A stretch of DNA of 64,000 bases from a virus (IMGVR_UViG_3300029305_005280); one strand, 5' to 3'. Numbered from the stretch's first letter, positions 1,324-8,357 are shown. Translations and numbers: made by a program. Notes: generated by a model from the sequence alone, not told the origin.

Positions 1324-1412
1324 GGTAGCCGTGGTGGAATTGGTAGACACGCTGGATTGTGGCTCCAGTACTCTTTTGAGTTGTGAGAGTTCAAGTCTCT
1401 CCGGTTACCCCA
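1324..1412 (+). tRNA. tRNA-His(GTG) with atypical long variable arm
   Basis: CTGGA-TTGTGGC-TCCAG; encoded G-1 opposite C73; Leu-like D arm GTGGTGGAATTGGTAGACAC; variable hairpin ACTC-TTTT-GAGT. Confidence 0.9.
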
Positions 1413-2385: not shown

Positions 2386-3111
2386 ATGAGTGTTGATACA
2401 TCATTAAAAACCGAAGTATTTGAAAAAGGTGTAAGAAAGAATTCTTTCATTCAGGATAATAACAAGTGGTATAATACAACGGGTGTTGGTGGATATTCAA
2501 CATGTATTGTTGGTAGCCCATCAAGAAGTGGTGCAAATGTTCTTTGCAATTGTGTAGGGCTTGCTAATGGGGCATTTAATGAAACATATGTTAAATGTAA
2601 GCAAACATTAGATTCATCCTTTGTACCTAAACAATATTATGCTTTTACTTCCAATGGTAATACGACAATAACAAGAGCAAAATCATTAGGACTAGAAACT
2701 ATTGACCCTTCAGGTATTCCTCCTCTTGGTGGTTTAATCTCTTGGGGTGGAGGAGCCAATCACGTTGCATATATAGCTGATGTTATTGATAATGACACTA
2801 TAGTTATAGTACAGGCAGGTTATGACACGCCAGTATGGTCTCAGAGAAATACCGCTGATACAGGTTGGGTATGTGATGCAAGAACTATAAAAAGAGGTTC
2901 TTCGAATCTGTGGGCATATCAGAATTCAGTTCCAAGTGGCACTGTTTGTCAAGGATTTGTTGTTAATCCTGCAGTAGCTGATGCAATAGAAGCAATATAT
3001 GGAGTTAGACTTGGTAATCAATTATATTCTGCTCATATATGGAAAGATGGTAAATGGAATAAAACAATTCCTCACCTGTGGTCAAATGGTAAATGGAATA
3101 AAACAAATTAA
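2386..3111 (+). CDS. CHAP-domain cell-wall hydrolase
   Basis: NCVG Cys and NHVAYI His motifs with GGLISW between them. Confidence 0.75.
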   Translation: MSVDTSLKTEVFEKGVRKNSFIQDNNKWYNTTGVGGYSTCIVGSPSRSGANVLCNCVGLANGAFNETYVKCKQTLDSSFVPKQYYAFTSNGNTTITRAKSLGLETIDPSGIPPLGGLISWGGGANHVAYIADVIDNDTIVIVQAGYDTPVWSQRNTADTGWVCDARTIKRGSSNLWAYQNSVPSGTVCQGFVVNPAVADAIEAIYGVRLGNQLYSAHIWKDGKWNKTIPHLWSNGKWNKTN

Positions 3112-3268
3112 AAATTATTAAAGATTTAGTTGAATCTTCTCAATTTACATAATATAATTATTGTATAATATAAAGTAGCATAAAACACAAGATTGCAAAA
3201 AAACTTGTTTGTGAGAGTTTTAAACCATCGGTGCCTGCACTGGTAGTATTTTAAATCACAACCTATAT

Positions 3269-3344
3269 TCCCACTTAGCTCAGTCGGTAGAGCACTCGGC
3301 TGTTAACCAAGCGGTCGCAGGTTCGAGCCCTGCAGTGGGAGCCA
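3269..3344 (+). tRNA. tRNA-Asn(GTT)
   Basis: Loop CTGTTAA, D arm TAGCTCAGTCGGTAGAGCA, CCA; one C-A mismatch in the anticodon stem. Confidence 0.95.
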
Positions 3345-3479
3345 CAGGTCCACTGTTAGGTGTTTTCATACGACCTGTACAAATAAACATTTTAGAAAAC
3401 ATGTGGTGCTTAAAGGTATGGTAAGACATATGTGCTTACGAAGCGTTTCGACCAATGTCCGACTCGAAACGAATCATTT

Positions 3480-3554
3480 GCTGGCGTGGCTCAATGGTAG
3501 AGCAGCTGATTTGTAATCAGCAGGTTGCAGGTTCGACTCCTGTCGCCAGCTCCA
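3480..3554 (+). tRNA. tRNA-Thr(TGT)
   Basis: GCTGA-TTTGTAA-TCAGC, CCA end. Confidence 0.97.
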
Positions 3555-3558
3555 ATAT

Positions 3559-3634
3559 GGGGCCATAACTCAACTGGGAGAGTGCCTGCTTTGCAAGCAG
3601 GATGTTAGGGGTTCAAGTCCCCTTGGTTCCACCA
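3559..3634 (+). tRNA. tRNA-Ala(TGC)
   Basis: CCTGC-TTTGCAA-GCAGG, G3:U70 pair, CCA end. Confidence 0.97.
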
Positions 3635-3706
3635 ATAGTTTCATAGAGTTCTAATAAACTATGTGCTTGTCACTTTAAGAAGTGAGTGGGTATAAAGTCC
3701 CACAAA

Positions 3707-4365
3707 TTCGTACCTTGAAAGATGTATACAATATAACTCAGTGATAAACATAAGGTACGCTCCTTATGCTGAGAGGAGCCCTAATTCTTCGGAAACGATT
3801 CCACGACAGAGAAACGTAAGAGGATACTCGGAAAAATGTCGTTACTTTGAGTAGTGATATTCAAAGTTGCAGAAGTAAACTTCAATGGAATGGGCTCTGT
3901 GCTGAGGTTATTGCAAGTAATGGTAAAGTGGGCATCGCACTCGTAATAGAGGCTATCGTTAATACCGATAGCTGAATCCAAGTTAGGATTTTAGCTGGTG
4001 ACTGTAATCAAACCTTGTGAAATACCACCAAGAGTGTTGGTCGTGATGTTCTTGAAAAAGAAAGTATAAGGTGCTCATCCAGTTTCCGAGTAGCCGAAGA
4101 CCAGTGGTAATTGAAGAAACAAATAATTTAGAAAGTAAGATTATCAAATTCTTCTGAATAGACGGTGAAAGGTGCAGGTAATCAGTCCTGCTATAGCTTG
4201 TGTGGTCCAGGGTCCCGCCGTTAACGGGAAGCCCAGACTTCGTGGCAAGAAGTTAGGGGTCGCTACCCGAAGCTCAGACTTGTCATCTATATGACCGAAT
4301 ATACTTGAAAATAATTATCAGTAATCCGAAGGGATAGTTGTTGTATATATCTTTAAAGGTACGAA
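3707..4365 (+). ncRNA. Large ornate ncRNA, ROOL-like candidate (GOLLD not excluded)
   Basis: 659 nt with no credible ORF between tRNA-Ala and tRNA-fMet; 25-bp terminal helix TTCGTACCTTGAAAGATGTATACAA / TTGTATATATCTTTAAAGGTACGAA; GC-richer than flanks with many hairpins. Confidence 0.65.
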
Positions 4366-5832: not shown

Positions 5833-7482
5833 ATGAGTAAATTATCTAAAGCAGTTGAAGCAATGCACGAAGATGTAGTGCTTCGTAAAGATGAAACAGA
5901 AGTTAACTTTATGGGTGGTGACTCCTACAAGTTAAATCCGCTTGAAACCTTGAAGATGATTAGTGCTTCTTCCATCTTTGGTGAACCTTCTTACTACCGT
6001 GACGGCAGAAGTGCAAAGAAAACACTTTACAAGGTAGACAGGCTTGTAAAAGATTGGCTCATTATTCCTGACCGCTATGTAGGTAAAAATACAGAGCAAA
6101 TCATGGAGTCTGCAATTGATGCAGCACTGGAGTATGATTTTGGCGCGACGCTTGAGTGGGCAACTACTTTGCGTAATGATTTCTTTATGCGTCTTAATCC
6201 TCAAGTCATTATGGTAAGAGCAGCTATGCATCCTAACCGTAAAGAATGGACCGAGGCTAATCCTGGCAAATTCAATGAATATAATCAGATGGTTATGAAG
6301 CGTGCAGATGAGCCTATGTCTCAGATGGCTTACTATCTGTATCTTAATAAAGGTAAGAAGAATAAGATTCCTTCTGTTATTAAACGCTCTTGGGCTGACA
6401 ATCTGAGCAAGCTGAATCGTTACAAGGTTGCTAAATACAAGAATCATGAAATTGGAATGATTAACGGTGTACGCCTTTGCCACGCAAATTCCAAAGTTCT
6501 TGATGAACTGATGACCAGTGGCACCGTTGAAGTTTCTGAGGATTCTAAAACTTGGGAAAATCTTCGTTCAGAAGGAAAGACCTGGGAAGAAATCTTTGAT
6601 ACTGTAGATATGGGCCATATGGCATTACTGAGAAATATCAGAGGCGTTTTCTCCGAATCTGACAACAAGGACCTTTTTGTAAGATACATGACTAAACTTA
6701 AATCAACTGTAAAAGATGGAAAGCAATTTCCTTTCAGATACTGGTCTGCAATCCAAGCTGTTCAAGGCAGTAACTGTAACTTTAAACCCTTAATCATTGA
6801 TGCCCTTGAAGAATGTATGGATATTGCGGTTGATAACTATCCCAAGCTAAGAGGCAAAACAATGTGCCTATCAGATAACTCTGGCTCTGCTTGGGGAGCT
6901 GTAACAACTGAGTACGGCTCTGTGACTGTTGCAAATATTGATAATCTTTCCTCTGTTATTACTGCAGCTTGTTCCGATGAAGGATATGTTGGTAAGTTTG
7001 GTGACAGATTGATTACCCATCCTATCAGCAAACGCAGAGGTATTCTGTCTCAAGCAGAAGCAATTACTCGTGATAGAGACCGAGATGTTGGCGGTGGTAC
7101 TGAAGGCGGTATCTGGGAATTCTTCAGAAGTGCTATTGATAAGAAAGAACACTGGGACAATATCTTTATCTATTCTGATATGCAAGCAGGACATGGTGGT
7201 CTGTATGGCACAAGTTCTCAATACAATGACTATCGTCGTAGAGGATATGATATTGGAAACCATATCAATGTGTTCAAACTTGTACAGGATTATAGAAAAA
7301 TTGTTAATCCCAAAGTAAATGTATTCTCTATTCAAACAGCAGGTTATACTAATAACTTGATGCCTGAGATGGCATACAGAACTGCAATTTTGAGTGGTTG
7401 GACTGGCAAGGAAGCTTCTTTTGCGGAAGAGTACATTCGTCAGTGGGATGAAATTGAAACAAAAAATTCTAAAAAGAATTAG
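5833..7482 (+). CDS. Ro60/Rsr-like TROVE-domain RNA-binding protein with C-terminal vWA domain
   Basis: 549 aa; N-terminal NFMGG..Y and FGEPSYY; MGHMALLRNIR; QFPFRY; vWA MIDAS-like CLSDNSGS, GGGT, IYSDMQ; own promoter at 5768. Confidence 0.9.
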   Translation: MSKLSKAVEAMHEDVVLRKDETEVNFMGGDSYKLNPLETLKMISASSIFGEPSYYRDGRSAKKTLYKVDRLVKDWLIIPDRYVGKNTEQIMESAIDAALEYDFGATLEWATTLRNDFFMRLNPQVIMVRAAMHPNRKEWTEANPGKFNEYNQMVMKRADEPMSQMAYYLYLNKGKKNKIPSVIKRSWADNLSKLNRYKVAKYKNHEIGMINGVRLCHANSKVLDELMTSGTVEVSEDSKTWENLRSEGKTWEEIFDTVDMGHMALLRNIRGVFSESDNKDLFVRYMTKLKSTVKDGKQFPFRYWSAIQAVQGSNCNFKPLIIDALEECMDIAVDNYPKLRGKTMCLSDNSGSAWGAVTTEYGSVTVANIDNLSSVITAACSDEGYVGKFGDRLITHPISKRRGILSQAEAITRDRDRDVGGGTEGGIWEFFRSAIDKKEHWDNIFIYSDMQAGHGGLYGTSSQYNDYRRRGYDIGNHINVFKLVQDYRKIVNPKVNVFSIQTAGYTNNLMPEMAYRTAILSGWTGKEASFAEEYIRQWDEIETKNSKKN

Positions 7483-7487
7483 TGATT

Positions 7488-7519
7488 TAGTTGATAAATG
7501 AAGCATAAAGCTTTATAAT
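7488..7519 (+). promoter_or_regulatory. Promoter driving the Y-RNA-like array
   Basis: TAGTTGATA-N17-TATAAT immediately after the Ro60 stop codon. Confidence 0.85.
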
Positions 7520-7551: not shown

Positions 7552-7658
7552 CTGCTTGATGCAGAGACAGATGCTTACTTCATTGGTTGAAAATTTGTCT
7601 TGAAAACGAATACAGCAGGTTCGAGTCCTGTATTAGCATCTTCATTATTCTCAAGCAG
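7552..7658 (+). ncRNA. Y-RNA-like unit 1 (insert: Ser-UGA anticodon arm plus T arm)
   Basis: Stem CTGCTTGA/TCAAGCAG, TGCAG, AGATGC/GCATCT, TTACTTC; ATTTGT-CTTGAAA-ACGAAT; GCAGG-TTCGAGT-CCTGT. Confidence 0.8.
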
Positions 7659-7680
7659 GACCTTCCTTTATGGAATAGTA

Positions 7681-7782
7681 TTTCTGATGCAGTAAATCAA
7701 GTTACTTCAGGCTTTGACTTTTAATCAAAATACCTAATAGACTTAAAATCTATCAATACACTTGATTTGATATTCTCAGAAA
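7681..7782 (+). ncRNA. Y-RNA-like unit 2 (insert: two anticodon stem-loops, Lys-UUU and Leu-UAA)
   Basis: Stem TTTCTGA/TCAGAAA, TGCAG, AAATCAAG/CTTGATTT, TTACTTC; TTTGA-CTTTTAA-TCAAA and ATAGA-CTTAAAA-TCTAT. Confidence 0.8.
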
Positions 7783-7803
7783 TTATTGTATAAAATATAT
7801 AAC

Positions 7804-7971
7804 ATGTGTGAAGCAGGGAGATTAGTTACTTCGAAAGGTTTGGTCTGTTAAACCCGAAGTCGTTGGTTCGAATCCAACCATTGTTAGTAACGGCGAGTGA
7901 AAGCAATGTAACTCAGCTGGAAAGAGTGCGTGTAAATTTAGAAATTTACTAATTTCATTATTCTCACACAT
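7804..7971 (+). ncRNA. Y-RNA-like unit 3 (YrlA-type circularly permuted tRNA with an Asn-GUU loop)
   Basis: Stem ATGTGTGA/TCACACAT, AGCAG, AGATTAG/CTAATTT, TTACTTC; order: anticodon arm (GGT-CTGTTAA-ACC), T arm GTTGG-TTCGAAT-CCAAC, closed acceptor CATTGTT/AGCAATG, D arm ACTC-AGCTGGAAA-GAGT. Confidence 0.85.
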
Positions 7972-7986
7972 CTATTTAAAAGTAAT

Positions 7987-8136
7987 ATTTACGATGCAGT
8001 CATATCAGTTACTTCGTTGCATTGGGTGCCTGGTGTCATTGGTTCGAGTCCAATATTCCCGCCCATTTATGCGGGAATTAGCTCAGTCGGTAGAGCACAG
8101 TAGAAATTATTAGCTGATATATTTATTCTCGTAAAT
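7987..8136 (+). ncRNA. Y-RNA-like unit 4 (YrlA-type circularly permuted tRNA with a Pro-UGG-like loop)
   Basis: Stem ATTTACGA/TCGTAAAT, TGCAG, ATATCAG/CTGATAT, TTACTTC; T arm ATTGG-TTCGAGT-CCAAT, acceptor ATTCCCGC/GCGGGAAT, D arm TAGCTCAGTCGGTAGAGCA. Confidence 0.87.
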
Positions 8137-8153
8137 TTTTAATTTGATGTTAT

Positions 8154-8274
8154 AGCTGAAGCAGACTACAGAGTTACTTCAAATACATAGTACTAATGTT
8201 ATATTATATAAAAGAACAAAATATGTTAGCCGTGAGCTTACATAGATAAACACTCTGTAACTTAATTCTCAGCT
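8154..8274 (+). ncRNA. Y-RNA-like unit 5 (AU-rich insert, no clear tRNA arm)
   Basis: Stem AGCTGA/TCAGCT, AGCAG, TACAGAG/CTCTGTA, TTACTTC, AATTCTC. Confidence 0.75.
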
Positions 8275-8280
8275 TTATTT

Positions 8281-8357
8281 GCGGGATTGGTGTTTAATGG
8301 TTAGCATCTCAGTCTTCCAAACTGATGGTGAGGGTTCGAGTCCCTTATCCCGCTCCA
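8281..8357 (+). tRNA. tRNA-Gly(TCC)
   Basis: TCAGT-CTTCCAA-ACTGA, GCGGGAT/ATCCCGC acceptor stem, TCCA end. Confidence 0.97.

What the first reader, a model, noticed from the sequence alone, without database searches (positions are those of the whole stretch)
7593..8029. Y-like RNAs display intact anticodon stem-loops: possible decoys against host anticodon nucleases
Seen: 7-nt loops with U33-type geometry sit in the inserts: CTTGAAA (Ser-UGA, 7599-7605, identical to the loop of this phage's tRNA-Ser), CTTTTAA (Lys-UUU, 7718-7724), CTTAAAA (Leu-UAA, 7742-7748), CTGTTAA (Asn-GUU, 7845-7851) and ATTGGGT (Pro-UGG, 8021-8027, weak stem). Established: described YrlA has no anticodon loop, because the Ro stem replaces it. 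tRNA-Lys(UUU) is the PrrC target and Asn is among the colicin E5-type QUN targets; anticodon nucleases are common anti-phage effectors. Inference: Ro60-protected, non-chargeable anticodon mimics could titrate tRNA-cleaving defences, T-box riboswitches or modification enzymes.
Basis: partly seen in the sequence, partly recalled or inferred. Interest (0 to 1): 0.85.

Follow-up and report, generated by a model that had tools for sequence, protein, structure and literature searches.

The report
Phage Ro60 partner RNAs displaying anticodon arms
A 156-kb gut-type phage encodes a Ro60 RNA-binding protein followed by five small partner RNAs, at least two of which (three hairpins) carry faithful copies of tRNA anticodon hairpins on bodies with no free acceptor end; relatives keep the hairpin but swap the anticodon, so they look like baits for whatever reads tRNA anticodons.

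Summary
After a Ro60 gene (5833-7482) lie five tandem RNAs on one shared scaffold, the only five in the genome. Three loops are clean anticodon-type hairpins: Ser-UGA in unit 1, Lys-UUU and Leu-UAA in unit 2. The Asn-GUU loop of unit 3 has an interrupted stem here but a clean 5-bp stem in relatives. The Pro-like loop of unit 4 is not convincing.

This exceeds chance. Inserts of close relatives hold 21 such hairpins against 1.3 in shuffles. Across 237 distinct units, 42 hairpin loops equal a real anticodon loop of tRNAs in the same loci, against 3.3 expected. Position 34 is U or G in 45 of 50.

Stems covary while loop positions 32, 33, 37 and 38 stay fixed. The anticodon changes on otherwise identical stems, for example UUU, GUU and UAU. 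Cargo comes in three designs: cloverleaf, permuted tRNA and bare hairpin.

So anticodon-arm mimicry is well supported; the decoy function is untested. Hughes et al. 2020 floated a competitive-inhibitor role for YrlA, which lacks an anticodon loop. I found no paper describing anticodon arms on Y RNAs.

This scan noted the same theme on other phage genomes (e1-5656911, e1-5654012, e1-5629283).

The parts
5833..7482 (+). Ro60 (TROVE + vWA) gene, 549 aa
   Evidence: Pfam TROVE 27.4 bits, cut-off 23. AlphaFold model pLDDT 80.9, pTM 0.79. The top 12 listed PDB fold matches are all Ro60/TROVE structures: phage phiLo 9kop/9l5y, D. radiodurans 2nvo, human and Xenopus Ro60, E 2e-17 to 2e-10.
7491..7519 (+). 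sigma-70-like promoter in front of the RNA array
   Evidence: TTGATA, 17-nt spacer, TATAAT: 11 of 12 matches. This is a consensus match only.
7553..7657 (+). Unit 1: scaffold plus non-permuted cloverleaf cargo. The 7-bp inner stem takes the place of the acceptor stem. Anticodon arm 7593-7611, loop 7599-7605 (Ser-UGA type); T arm 7615-7631. No CCA and no long variable arm.
   Evidence: Fold. ARAGORN calls it tRNA-Ser at 7572-7640. Rfam tRNA 26.3 bits, below the threshold of 29. Orthologues in L001 and L002 keep the loop on changed stems.
7681..7782 (+). Unit 2: scaffold plus two bare anticodon-type hairpins, 7713-7729 (Lys-UUU loop) and 7737-7753 (Leu-UAA loop). No T, D or acceptor arm.
   Evidence: Fold. 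Alignment with L001 and L002, where the L002 orthologue shows Arg-UCU and Gly-UCC loops at the same places. The loop and the two nearest pairs match the phage's own tRNA-Lys and tRNA-Leu(UAA).
7805..7970 (+). Unit 3: scaffold plus circularly permuted tRNA. Hairpin 7829-7859 with Asn-GUU loop 7845-7851 (stem interrupted by an 8-nt bulge); T arm 7862-7878; closed acceptor 7879-7908; D arm 7911-7927.
   Evidence: Rfam YrlA 28.2 bits over the full model, below the threshold of 69. Folds. Seven-way alignment. Clean 5-bp versions in relatives.
7988..8135 (+). Unit 4: scaffold plus YrlA-like permuted tRNA. T arm 8038-8054; closed acceptor 8055-8078; D arm 8081-8096. A 7-nt loop at 8021-8027, closed by two G-C pairs, is a doubtful anticodon mimic.
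   Evidence: Rfam YrlA 32.8 bits, E 5e-5. Folds. Comparison with relatives.
8153..8275 (+). Unit 5: same scaffold with a 77-nt A/U-rich cargo that has no tRNA-like feature. Its role is unknown.
   Evidence: Scaffold finder. Weak fold, z = -0.9.
8281..8357 (+). Genuine tRNA-Gly(UCC) with encoded CCA, closing the array
   Evidence: ARAGORN. Rfam tRNA 39.3 bits. Sequence.

Best explanation
The five RNAs are partner RNAs of the phage Ro60 and are relatives of bacterial YrlA.

Each has the same handle, in this order: an outer stem; an internal loop with YGAWGCRG on the 5' side and UUCUC on the 3' side; a 7-8-bp inner stem; then UUACUUC. By homology this handle should hold Ro60. That step is inferred.

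The handle carries a variable cargo built from tRNA parts. In units 1 and 2 the cargo presents an authentic anticodon arm; unit 3 carries the Asn loop on an interrupted stem that is clean only in relatives. In each, the acceptor end is either closed or fused into the handle. The RNA should therefore not be chargeable or usable in translation. This follows from the anatomy.

I think these RNAs most likely act as competitive look-alikes (decoy, inhibitor or bait) for proteins that read tRNA anticodon arms. Host anticodon nucleases used in anti-phage defence are the leading candidates. Ro60 would stabilise the RNAs. The function is inference.

The identity and the anticodon-arm mimicry I hold at about 0.85. 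The confidence figure given is for the whole statement, including the decoy function.
For: Identity:
- The gene is Ro60 by fold.
- The genome has exactly five handle units, all directly after it on the same strand.
- The same handle sits beside Ro60 homologues in most of 155 related loci, with 237 distinct units.
- Outer and inner stems covary.
- Units 3 and 4 align to Rfam YrlA over the full model.
- UUAC matches the conserved YUAY of YrlA (Chen 2014).

Mimicry:
- 21 anticodon-type hairpins against 1.3 in shuffles.
- 42 loops identical to real anticodon loops against 3.3 expected.
- Features at positions 32, 37 and 38 that are typical of one tRNA species travel with the anticodon: C38 with Asp, U32 with Thr, U32 and G37 with Pro.
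- Position 34 is U 23, G 22, A 3, C 2, although the inserts are 33% A.
- The two pairs next to the loop covary through six Watson-Crick combinations in unit-3-type RNAs.
- Bare-hairpin units 27-45 nt long carry nothing but the arm.
- The anticodon changes on identical stems.

Not tRNAs: all 23 real tRNAs of the phage encode CCA, whereas unit 1 has no CCA and no long Ser arm.

Function:
- Hughes et al. 2020 proposed that YrlA might competitively inhibit an anticodon nuclease.
- Published anti-phage nucleases hit Lys-UUU, Asn-GUU and Thr tRNAs (PMC12409363). Lys and Asn are the two commonest loops displayed.
- Ser and Leu arms, 14 of 42 loops, would not serve to bind their synthetases, because those enzymes do not read the anticodon (established knowledge). 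This argues against a synthetase-only reading.
Against: No expression, Ro60-binding, cleavage or competition data exist for these RNAs.

The A/U-rich 5-bp stems are barely stable on their own.

My hairpin lists were selected for pairing and for YU...R loops. The stem statistics are therefore partly built in.

Related units share ancestry, so counts are not independent events.

Variable anticodons could mean weak constraint rather than retargeting.

The range of anticodons shown (about 15 kinds) is wider than any one nuclease's known targets.

The only phage Ro60 studied at the bench points to PNPase capture, with no anticodon theme.

Units 4 and 5 of this window show no anticodon arm.
Confidence: 0.4

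Rival explanations
1. Tether or adaptor. As in Ro60-Y RNA-PNPase complexes, the cargo is a docking handle. It would bring a host protein to Ro60, or lock that protein away. Candidates are PNPase, a tRNA-modifying or tRNA-processing enzyme, or an RNA repair enzyme. The anticodon arm would choose which protein docks; nuclease defence would not be involved.
For: In D. radiodurans, Y RNA tethers Ro60 to PNPase (Chen 2014). Thermus phage phiLo Ro60 with its two Y-like RNAs binds host PNPase and dampens its activity (PMC12135203). [quoted passage not shown] The phage encodes an RNA ligase family protein.
Against: PNPase binding would not need exact copies of particular anticodon loops, nor avoidance of A at position 34. 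A single partner does not explain about 15 different anticodons or the switching on identical stems. The RNA ligase gene lies about 19 kb from the array and no kinase-phosphatase gene sits beside it. No RtcB was found.
Confidence: 0.25
2. Inheritance without arm-specific function. The cargo arose from tRNA genes and only needs to be a compact tRNA-like fold, so the anticodon arms are carried along and drift.
For: Cargo clearly derives from tRNAs: loops and nearest pairs match the phage's own tRNAs. The three anticodon positions vary freely. Units 4 and 5, and a whole sister clade of arrays, have no such arm.
Against: Positions 32, 33, 37 and 38 stay fixed, and stems covary, across Ro60 divergence down to about 55% identity. 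Bare units have lost every other tRNA part but kept the arm. A at position 34 is avoided. Changed anticodons still give loops found in real tRNAs.
Confidence: 0.12
3. RNA-RNA action through anticodon pairing. The exposed triplet would pair with a codon-like site, for example the specifier of a T-box leader in the Clostridia-type hosts, or a site on a phage or host RNA.
For: Relatives come from rumen, gut and termite samples, on contigs binned with Clostridia and Synergistaceae. Those are hosts where T-box leaders are common (established knowledge). Units 1 and 3 have both an arm and a T/D elbow but no free 3' end.
Against: T-box stem I also needs the tRNA elbow (established knowledge), which the bare-hairpin units lack. 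Many displayed anticodons start with U, whereas T-box specifier codons usually end in C (recalled knowledge, not checked here). I found no complementary partner site, though I did not search systematically.
Confidence: 0.08
4. They are real tRNA genes or precursors, and the handle is merely a processing cassette.
For: ARAGORN calls unit 1 a tRNA. Some relatives' cloverleaf cargo passes the Rfam tRNA threshold, for example L008 at 58.9 bits with its own 7-bp acceptor stem. [quoted passage not shown]
Against: Unit 1 scores below the threshold (26.3 against 29). It lacks CCA, although all 23 real tRNAs of this phage encode it, and it lacks the long arm that SerRS needs. Bare hairpins and permuted forms with closed acceptor stems cannot be charged. 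The phage already has real tRNAs for all five anticodons.
Confidence: 0.04

Closest known systems
YrlA/YrlB Y RNAs with bacterial Ro60 (Rsr); Rfam RF02553 (Chen et al. 2014, PMC4201824; Wang et al. 2018, doi 10.1101/312249)
   Same: Encoded next to Ro60 on the same strand. Terminal stem with an internal loop resembling the GNCGAAN0-1G Ro motif. Conserved YUAY (here UUAC). In units 3 and 4, a T arm, closed acceptor stem and D arm in the same order. Some YrlA RNAs have a hairpin upstream of the T arm.
   Different: That hairpin is drawn in the literature as a 'variable arm', and YrlA is said to lack an anticodon loop. Here the hairpin has a 5-bp stem and a 7-nt loop identical to real anticodon loops, followed by a normal 5-nt variable loop. 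The Rfam score is far below threshold. Two further cargo designs, non-permuted cloverleaf and bare hairpin, are not described for YrlA. There are five units in tandem.
Deinococcus radiodurans Yrn1
   Same: A Y RNA with tRNA-like features, drawn with a possible 'anticodon arm' on a 5-bp stem.
   Different: Its loop has 6 nt, not 7, and no match to real anticodon loops is claimed. It is a single RNA, and its known role is tethering Ro60 to PNPase.
Thermus phage phiLo Ro60 with Yrl1/Yrl2 (PMC12135203; PDB 9kop, 9l5y)
   Same: A phage-encoded Ro60 (best fold match) with phage-encoded stem-bulge-stem partner RNAs beside the gene.
   Different: No tRNA or anticodon mimicry is reported: the word 'anticodon' does not occur in the paper. 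Its function is linked to host PNPase.
Phage-encoded tRNAs that neutralise tRNA-cleaving defences (T5 tRNAs against PARIS AriB, PMC11464382 and PMC12409363; anticodon-loop variants, PMC10264068; retron evasion, PMC11555353)
   Same: A phage RNA with an anticodon arm set against tRNA-targeting immunity. Lys-UUU and Asn-GUU are prominent.
   Different: Those are functional, chargeable tRNAs that replace cleaved host tRNAs and often carry loop changes to escape cleavage. The RNAs here appear non-chargeable, keep the canonical loop, and sit on a Ro60 handle.
Anticodon-arm mimicry that titrates a tRNA-binding protein (HIV-1 tRNA-like element binding LysRS, PMC5113203; E. coli thrS operator, recalled knowledge)
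   Same: A non-tRNA RNA shows an anticodon-like hairpin to compete for a protein that reads the anticodon.
   Different: Those sit within an mRNA or viral genome, have one fixed specificity, and involve no Ro60.

Membership tests
Y RNA / YrlA (Rfam RF02553) | Encoded within about 4 kb of a Ro60 gene, on the same strand | tested here: met
   The units start 71 nt after the Ro60 stop, on the + strand. Ro60 is confirmed by fold. The same linkage is seen in related loci.
Y RNA / YrlA (Rfam RF02553) | Score at or above the Rfam gathering threshold (69 bits) | tested here: not met
   Unit 4 scores 32.8 bits and unit 3 scores 28.2 bits; units 1, 2 and 5 get no hit. Relatives reach at most 38.6 bits.
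Y RNA / YrlA (Rfam RF02553) | 5'/3' terminal stem with an internal loop carrying the Ro motif GNCGAAN0-1G | tested here: inconclusive
   All five units have stem, loop, stem with YGAWGCRG. This resembles the published motif but does not equal it.
Y RNA / YrlA (Rfam RF02553) | Conserved YUAY at the start of the V region | tested here: met
   UUAC is invariant in all five units and in nearly all relatives.
Y RNA / YrlA (Rfam RF02553) | tRNA-like module: T arm, closed acceptor stem, D arm | tested here: met
   Met for units 3 and 4. Not met for units 1, 2 and 5.
Y RNA / YrlA (Rfam RF02553) | No anticodon loop; the Ro stem takes the place of the anticodon stem | tested here: not met
   Units 1 and 2 carry anticodon-type hairpins. 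In unit-3-type RNAs of relatives the hairpin is clean and a 9-nt linker separates the D arm from the inner stem; in the window's own unit 3 the stem is interrupted.
Y RNA / YrlA (Rfam RF02553) | Physical binding to Ro60 | not testable with these tools
   Needs RNA immunoprecipitation or a gel-shift assay.
tRNA (Rfam RF00005), for unit 1 | Score at or above the gathering threshold (29 bits) | tested here: not met
   26.3 bits, although ARAGORN calls it tRNA-Ser.
tRNA (Rfam RF00005), for unit 1 | Free acceptor end with discriminator and CCA; long variable arm for Ser identity | tested here: not met
   There is no CCA, the acceptor-like stem runs on into the handle, and the variable region is 3-5 nt. 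All 23 real tRNAs of the phage encode CCA.
Anti-defence decoy of anticodon nucleases (a functional class, not a sequence family) | Is cleaved by, or inhibits, an anticodon nuclease and rescues phage growth | not testable with these tools
   Only indirect support: faithful loops, switching anticodons, and overlap with known targets.

The most novel reading that the evidence does not exclude
A retargetable RNA anti-defence. Ro60-stabilised RNAs display bare tRNA anticodon arms. They would soak up or block host anticodon nucleases, and a single base change in the displayed anticodon would point the decoy at a different nuclease. The array would then be a panel tuned to the host's tRNA-cleaving arsenal.
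Probability: 0.3. Interest if true: 0.9.

Novelty: new variant of a known kind. Interest (0 to 1): 0.72.

Why it matters
What the tRNA-like part of bacterial and phage Y RNAs is for has been open since 2014.

These phage RNAs narrow the question. In many of them only the anticodon arm has been kept, it is copied faithfully, and its triplet changes between close relatives. That points to a reader of anticodon arms as the missing partner, and it gives simple constructs to fish for that partner.

If the partner is an anticodon nuclease, this would be an RNA-based counter-defence. It would sit alongside phage tRNAs as an answer to the growing list of tRNA-cleaving immune systems.

There is also a practical point: tRNA finders will annotate some of these units as tRNA genes, as ARAGORN does with unit 1.

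Tried and rejected
- The handle-like match at window 63557 is chance: it has no closing stems.
- My first strict unit finder missed units with a weak inner stem or a non-UUCUC tail. A looser finder produced false units inside the Ro60 ORF, and one real tRNA-Gly (L246). I masked or discounted these.
- MAFFT alignments of whole units are not structure-consistent in the 3' inner strand. I therefore did not run pair counts on them.
- The pair count on the 17-nt hairpins is strong but partly circular, because the hairpins were picked for pairing.
- Sequence searches of the Ro60 protein against PDB and NCBIfam found nothing. Only the fold search settled its identity.
- RtcB and T4 Rnl1 families were not found in the genome. 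The Rnl1 control rang nowhere, so that result is uninformative.
- The nearest cultured phage, Bacillus phage G, has five units with the same handle, but my scan found no anticodon-type hairpin in them.
- The review PMC10870794 is not held.

Full report
**Setting.** The window lies in a 156,472-bp IMG/VR virus record estimated 97% complete. It carries a large tRNA island of 23 real tRNAs, all with encoded CCA. A ROOL RNA lies at 3713-4356.

The ORF at 5833-7482 has a weak Pfam TROVE hit and no sequence match in PDB or NCBIfam. An AlphaFold model built on 21 homologues has pLDDT 80.9 and pTM 0.79. Its best fold matches are all Ro60 or TROVE proteins: phage phiLo, D. radiodurans, human and Xenopus, with E 2e-17 to 2e-10 and TM up to 0.71. 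It is a Ro60.

**The array.** A strong promoter-like site lies at 7491-7519. After it come five tandem units:
- 7553-7657
- 7681-7782
- 7805-7970
- 7988-8135
- 8153-8275

A real tRNA-Gly at 8281-8357 closes the array. Every unit has the same handle:
- an outer stem ending in GA/UC;
- an internal loop, WGCRG on the 5' side and UUCUC on the 3' side;
- a 7-8-bp inner stem whose sequence differs in every unit but always pairs;
- then UUACUUC.

A search of both strands of the whole genome finds exactly these five.

Units 3 and 4 align to Rfam YrlA over the full model, but far below threshold (32.8 and 28.2 against 69 bits). UUAC corresponds to the conserved YUAY of YrlA, and YGAWG resembles its Ro motif (Chen et al. 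2014).

The handle recurs next to Ro60 homologues in viral, metagenome and MAG contigs from rumen, gut and termite samples, giving 237 distinct units. It also occurs upstream of gp540 of the cultured Bacillus phage G.

**The cargo in this window.**
- Unit 1 is an ordinary-order cloverleaf whose acceptor stem is the inner stem of the handle. It has a D arm, a 6-bp arm with loop CUUGAAA, and a T arm, but no CCA and no long variable arm.
- Unit 2 has only two hairpins, each 5 bp plus 7 nt, with the Lys-UUU and Leu-UAA loops.
- Unit 3 is a circularly permuted tRNA. In order it has a hairpin, a variable loop, a T arm, a closed acceptor stem and a D arm.
- Unit 4 is similar to unit 3, but its 'Pro' loop is closed by two pairs only.
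- Unit 5 has no tRNA feature.

In unit 3 the Asn loop sits on an interrupted stem, and a rival fold is 5 kcal/mol better.

The loops of units 1-3 are identical to those of the phage's own tRNA-Ser(UGA), Lys, Leu(UAA) and Asn. The two pairs nearest the loop are also the same, while the outer pairs are A/U-rich and different.

**Is it more than chance?** In the 56 units of the close clade I count 21 hairpins with at least 5 bp and a YU-NNN-A-N loop, T loops excluded. Dinucleotide shuffles give 1.3 on average and 6 at most.

Over all 237 units, 42 hairpin loops are identical to an anticodon loop of a CCA-ending tRNA in the same loci, against 3.3 expected. One of the 42 is a true tRNA picked up by mistake.

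Position 34 is U or G in 45 of 50 cases, though the inserts are 33% A. Details typical of one tRNA species follow the anticodon: C38 with Asp, U32 with Thr, U32 and G37 with Pro.

It comes out positive.
- The unit-1 type keeps CUUGAAA on three different stems.
- The unit-2 orthologue in L002 keeps both stems but shows UCU and UCC in place of UUU and UAA.
- One family of about 75-nt units carries nothing but one arm. On the same stem it shows UUU, GUU or UAU, and on related stems GCU, GUC or UUU. Positions 32, 33 and 37 are invariant, and both handle stems covary.
- In unit-3-type RNAs the UUC of the handle forms the outer part of the arm. The two inner pairs run through six Watson-Crick combinations, the loops are Asn, Thr, Asp or Pro types, and a normal 5-nt variable loop follows.

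A sister clade with arrays upstream of Ro60 has other cargo and no such arms.

**Caveats.**
- The hairpins were partly picked for pairing, so the pair statistics are not independent.
- Related units share descent.
- The isolated stems are barely stable.

**What it is.** I conclude these are YrlA-related Ro60 partner RNAs in which the hairpin upstream of the T arm is a faithful anticodon arm. The literature draws that hairpin as a 'variable arm'. Two further designs, cloverleaf and bare arm, show the same element. Published YrlA is said to lack an anticodon loop, and Yrn1 has only a 6-nt look-alike. I found no paper describing this.

**How it may work.** The anatomy gives an exposed anticodon arm on a body that should not be chargeable. 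That fits a competitor for anticodon-arm readers.

Hughes et al. 2020 suggested YrlA might inhibit an anticodon nuclease. Known anti-phage nucleases target Lys-UUU, Asn-GUU and Thr tRNAs, and Lys and Asn are the commonest loops here.

Ser and Leu arms argue against synthetase capture as the general answer. Bare arms argue against T-box binding.

The main rival is a tether role, as shown for phiLo Ro60 with host PNPase. None of this is tested. I put the decoy reading at about 0.3-0.4 and the mimicry itself at about 0.85.

**Earlier notes.** First-stage notes on this genome, and follow-ups on other genomes, describe the same theme. I checked the claims I used myself, and I do not treat those notes as independent evidence.

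Noticed in passing
window 3713-4356: ROOL RNA (Rfam 284 bits) between tRNA-Ala and tRNA-Met, 1.5 kb upstream of Ro60. The relative L001 has one in the same place (277 bits). ROOL, a tRNA island and the Ro60 array travel together.
   Followed up: partly
window 7572-7640: ARAGORN annotates the cargo of unit 1 as a 69-nt tRNA-Ser(UGA). In relatives, cloverleaf cargo even passes the Rfam tRNA threshold (L008 5701-5773, 58.9 bits, with its own acceptor stem). Such units will be mis-annotated as tRNA genes.
   Followed up: partly
window 8153-8275: Unit 5 has the full handle but a 77-nt A/U-rich cargo with no tRNA feature and no convincing fold. The last units of relatives are just as featureless.
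   Followed up: no
L017, L023, L026, L028, L031, L033, L043, L045 (about 3450-3850 in each): The sister clade has its array upstream of Ro60. It has one unit with a cargo of about 170 nt, holding a conserved GUACUGCUAUAGA stretch and a terminal 5-bp hairpin with a 5-nt loop. It also has one or two tiny units whose 23-33-nt cargo is A-rich and unstructured.
   Followed up: no
L276 about 2905-3590 (Bacillus phage G, JN638751.1 about 406660-407350): Five unannotated units with the same handle lie in the 1-kb gap upstream of gp540 (TROVE protein, 52.5% identical). My scan found no anticodon-type hairpin. This is the nearest cultured system for testing whether Ro60 binds the handle.
   Followed up: partly
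L009 2085-2101: A bare-arm unit shows the loop CUUUAAA. Its triplet UUA would pair with the UAA stop codon and matches no ordinary tRNA.
   Followed up: no
G000, about 3.3 kb upstream of window position 1 (window coordinates -3350 to -3276): By ARAGORN's numbering, the phage's tRNA-Glu(UUC) has the anticodon loop CCUUCAA, with C where the near-universal U33 would be.
   Followed up: no
window 1325-1412: tRNA-His(GUG) is 88 nt long and has a long variable arm, which is unusual for His.
   Followed up: no
G000:C1:75401-75925 (locus L173 1462-2490, minus strand): A 342-aa RNA ligase family protein (PF09414 plus the PHA02142 OB fold) lies about 19 kb upstream of the array. Its neighbours are an HNH endonuclease, an SPFH protein and a dUTPase. 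No kinase-phosphatase gene is next to it.
   Followed up: partly
L007 6650-6773; L001 7077-7123: Rfam DUF3800-I (55.6 bits) and DUF3800-XI (39.4 bits) RNAs score above threshold a few hundred bases to about 2 kb downstream of the arrays in relatives.
   Followed up: no
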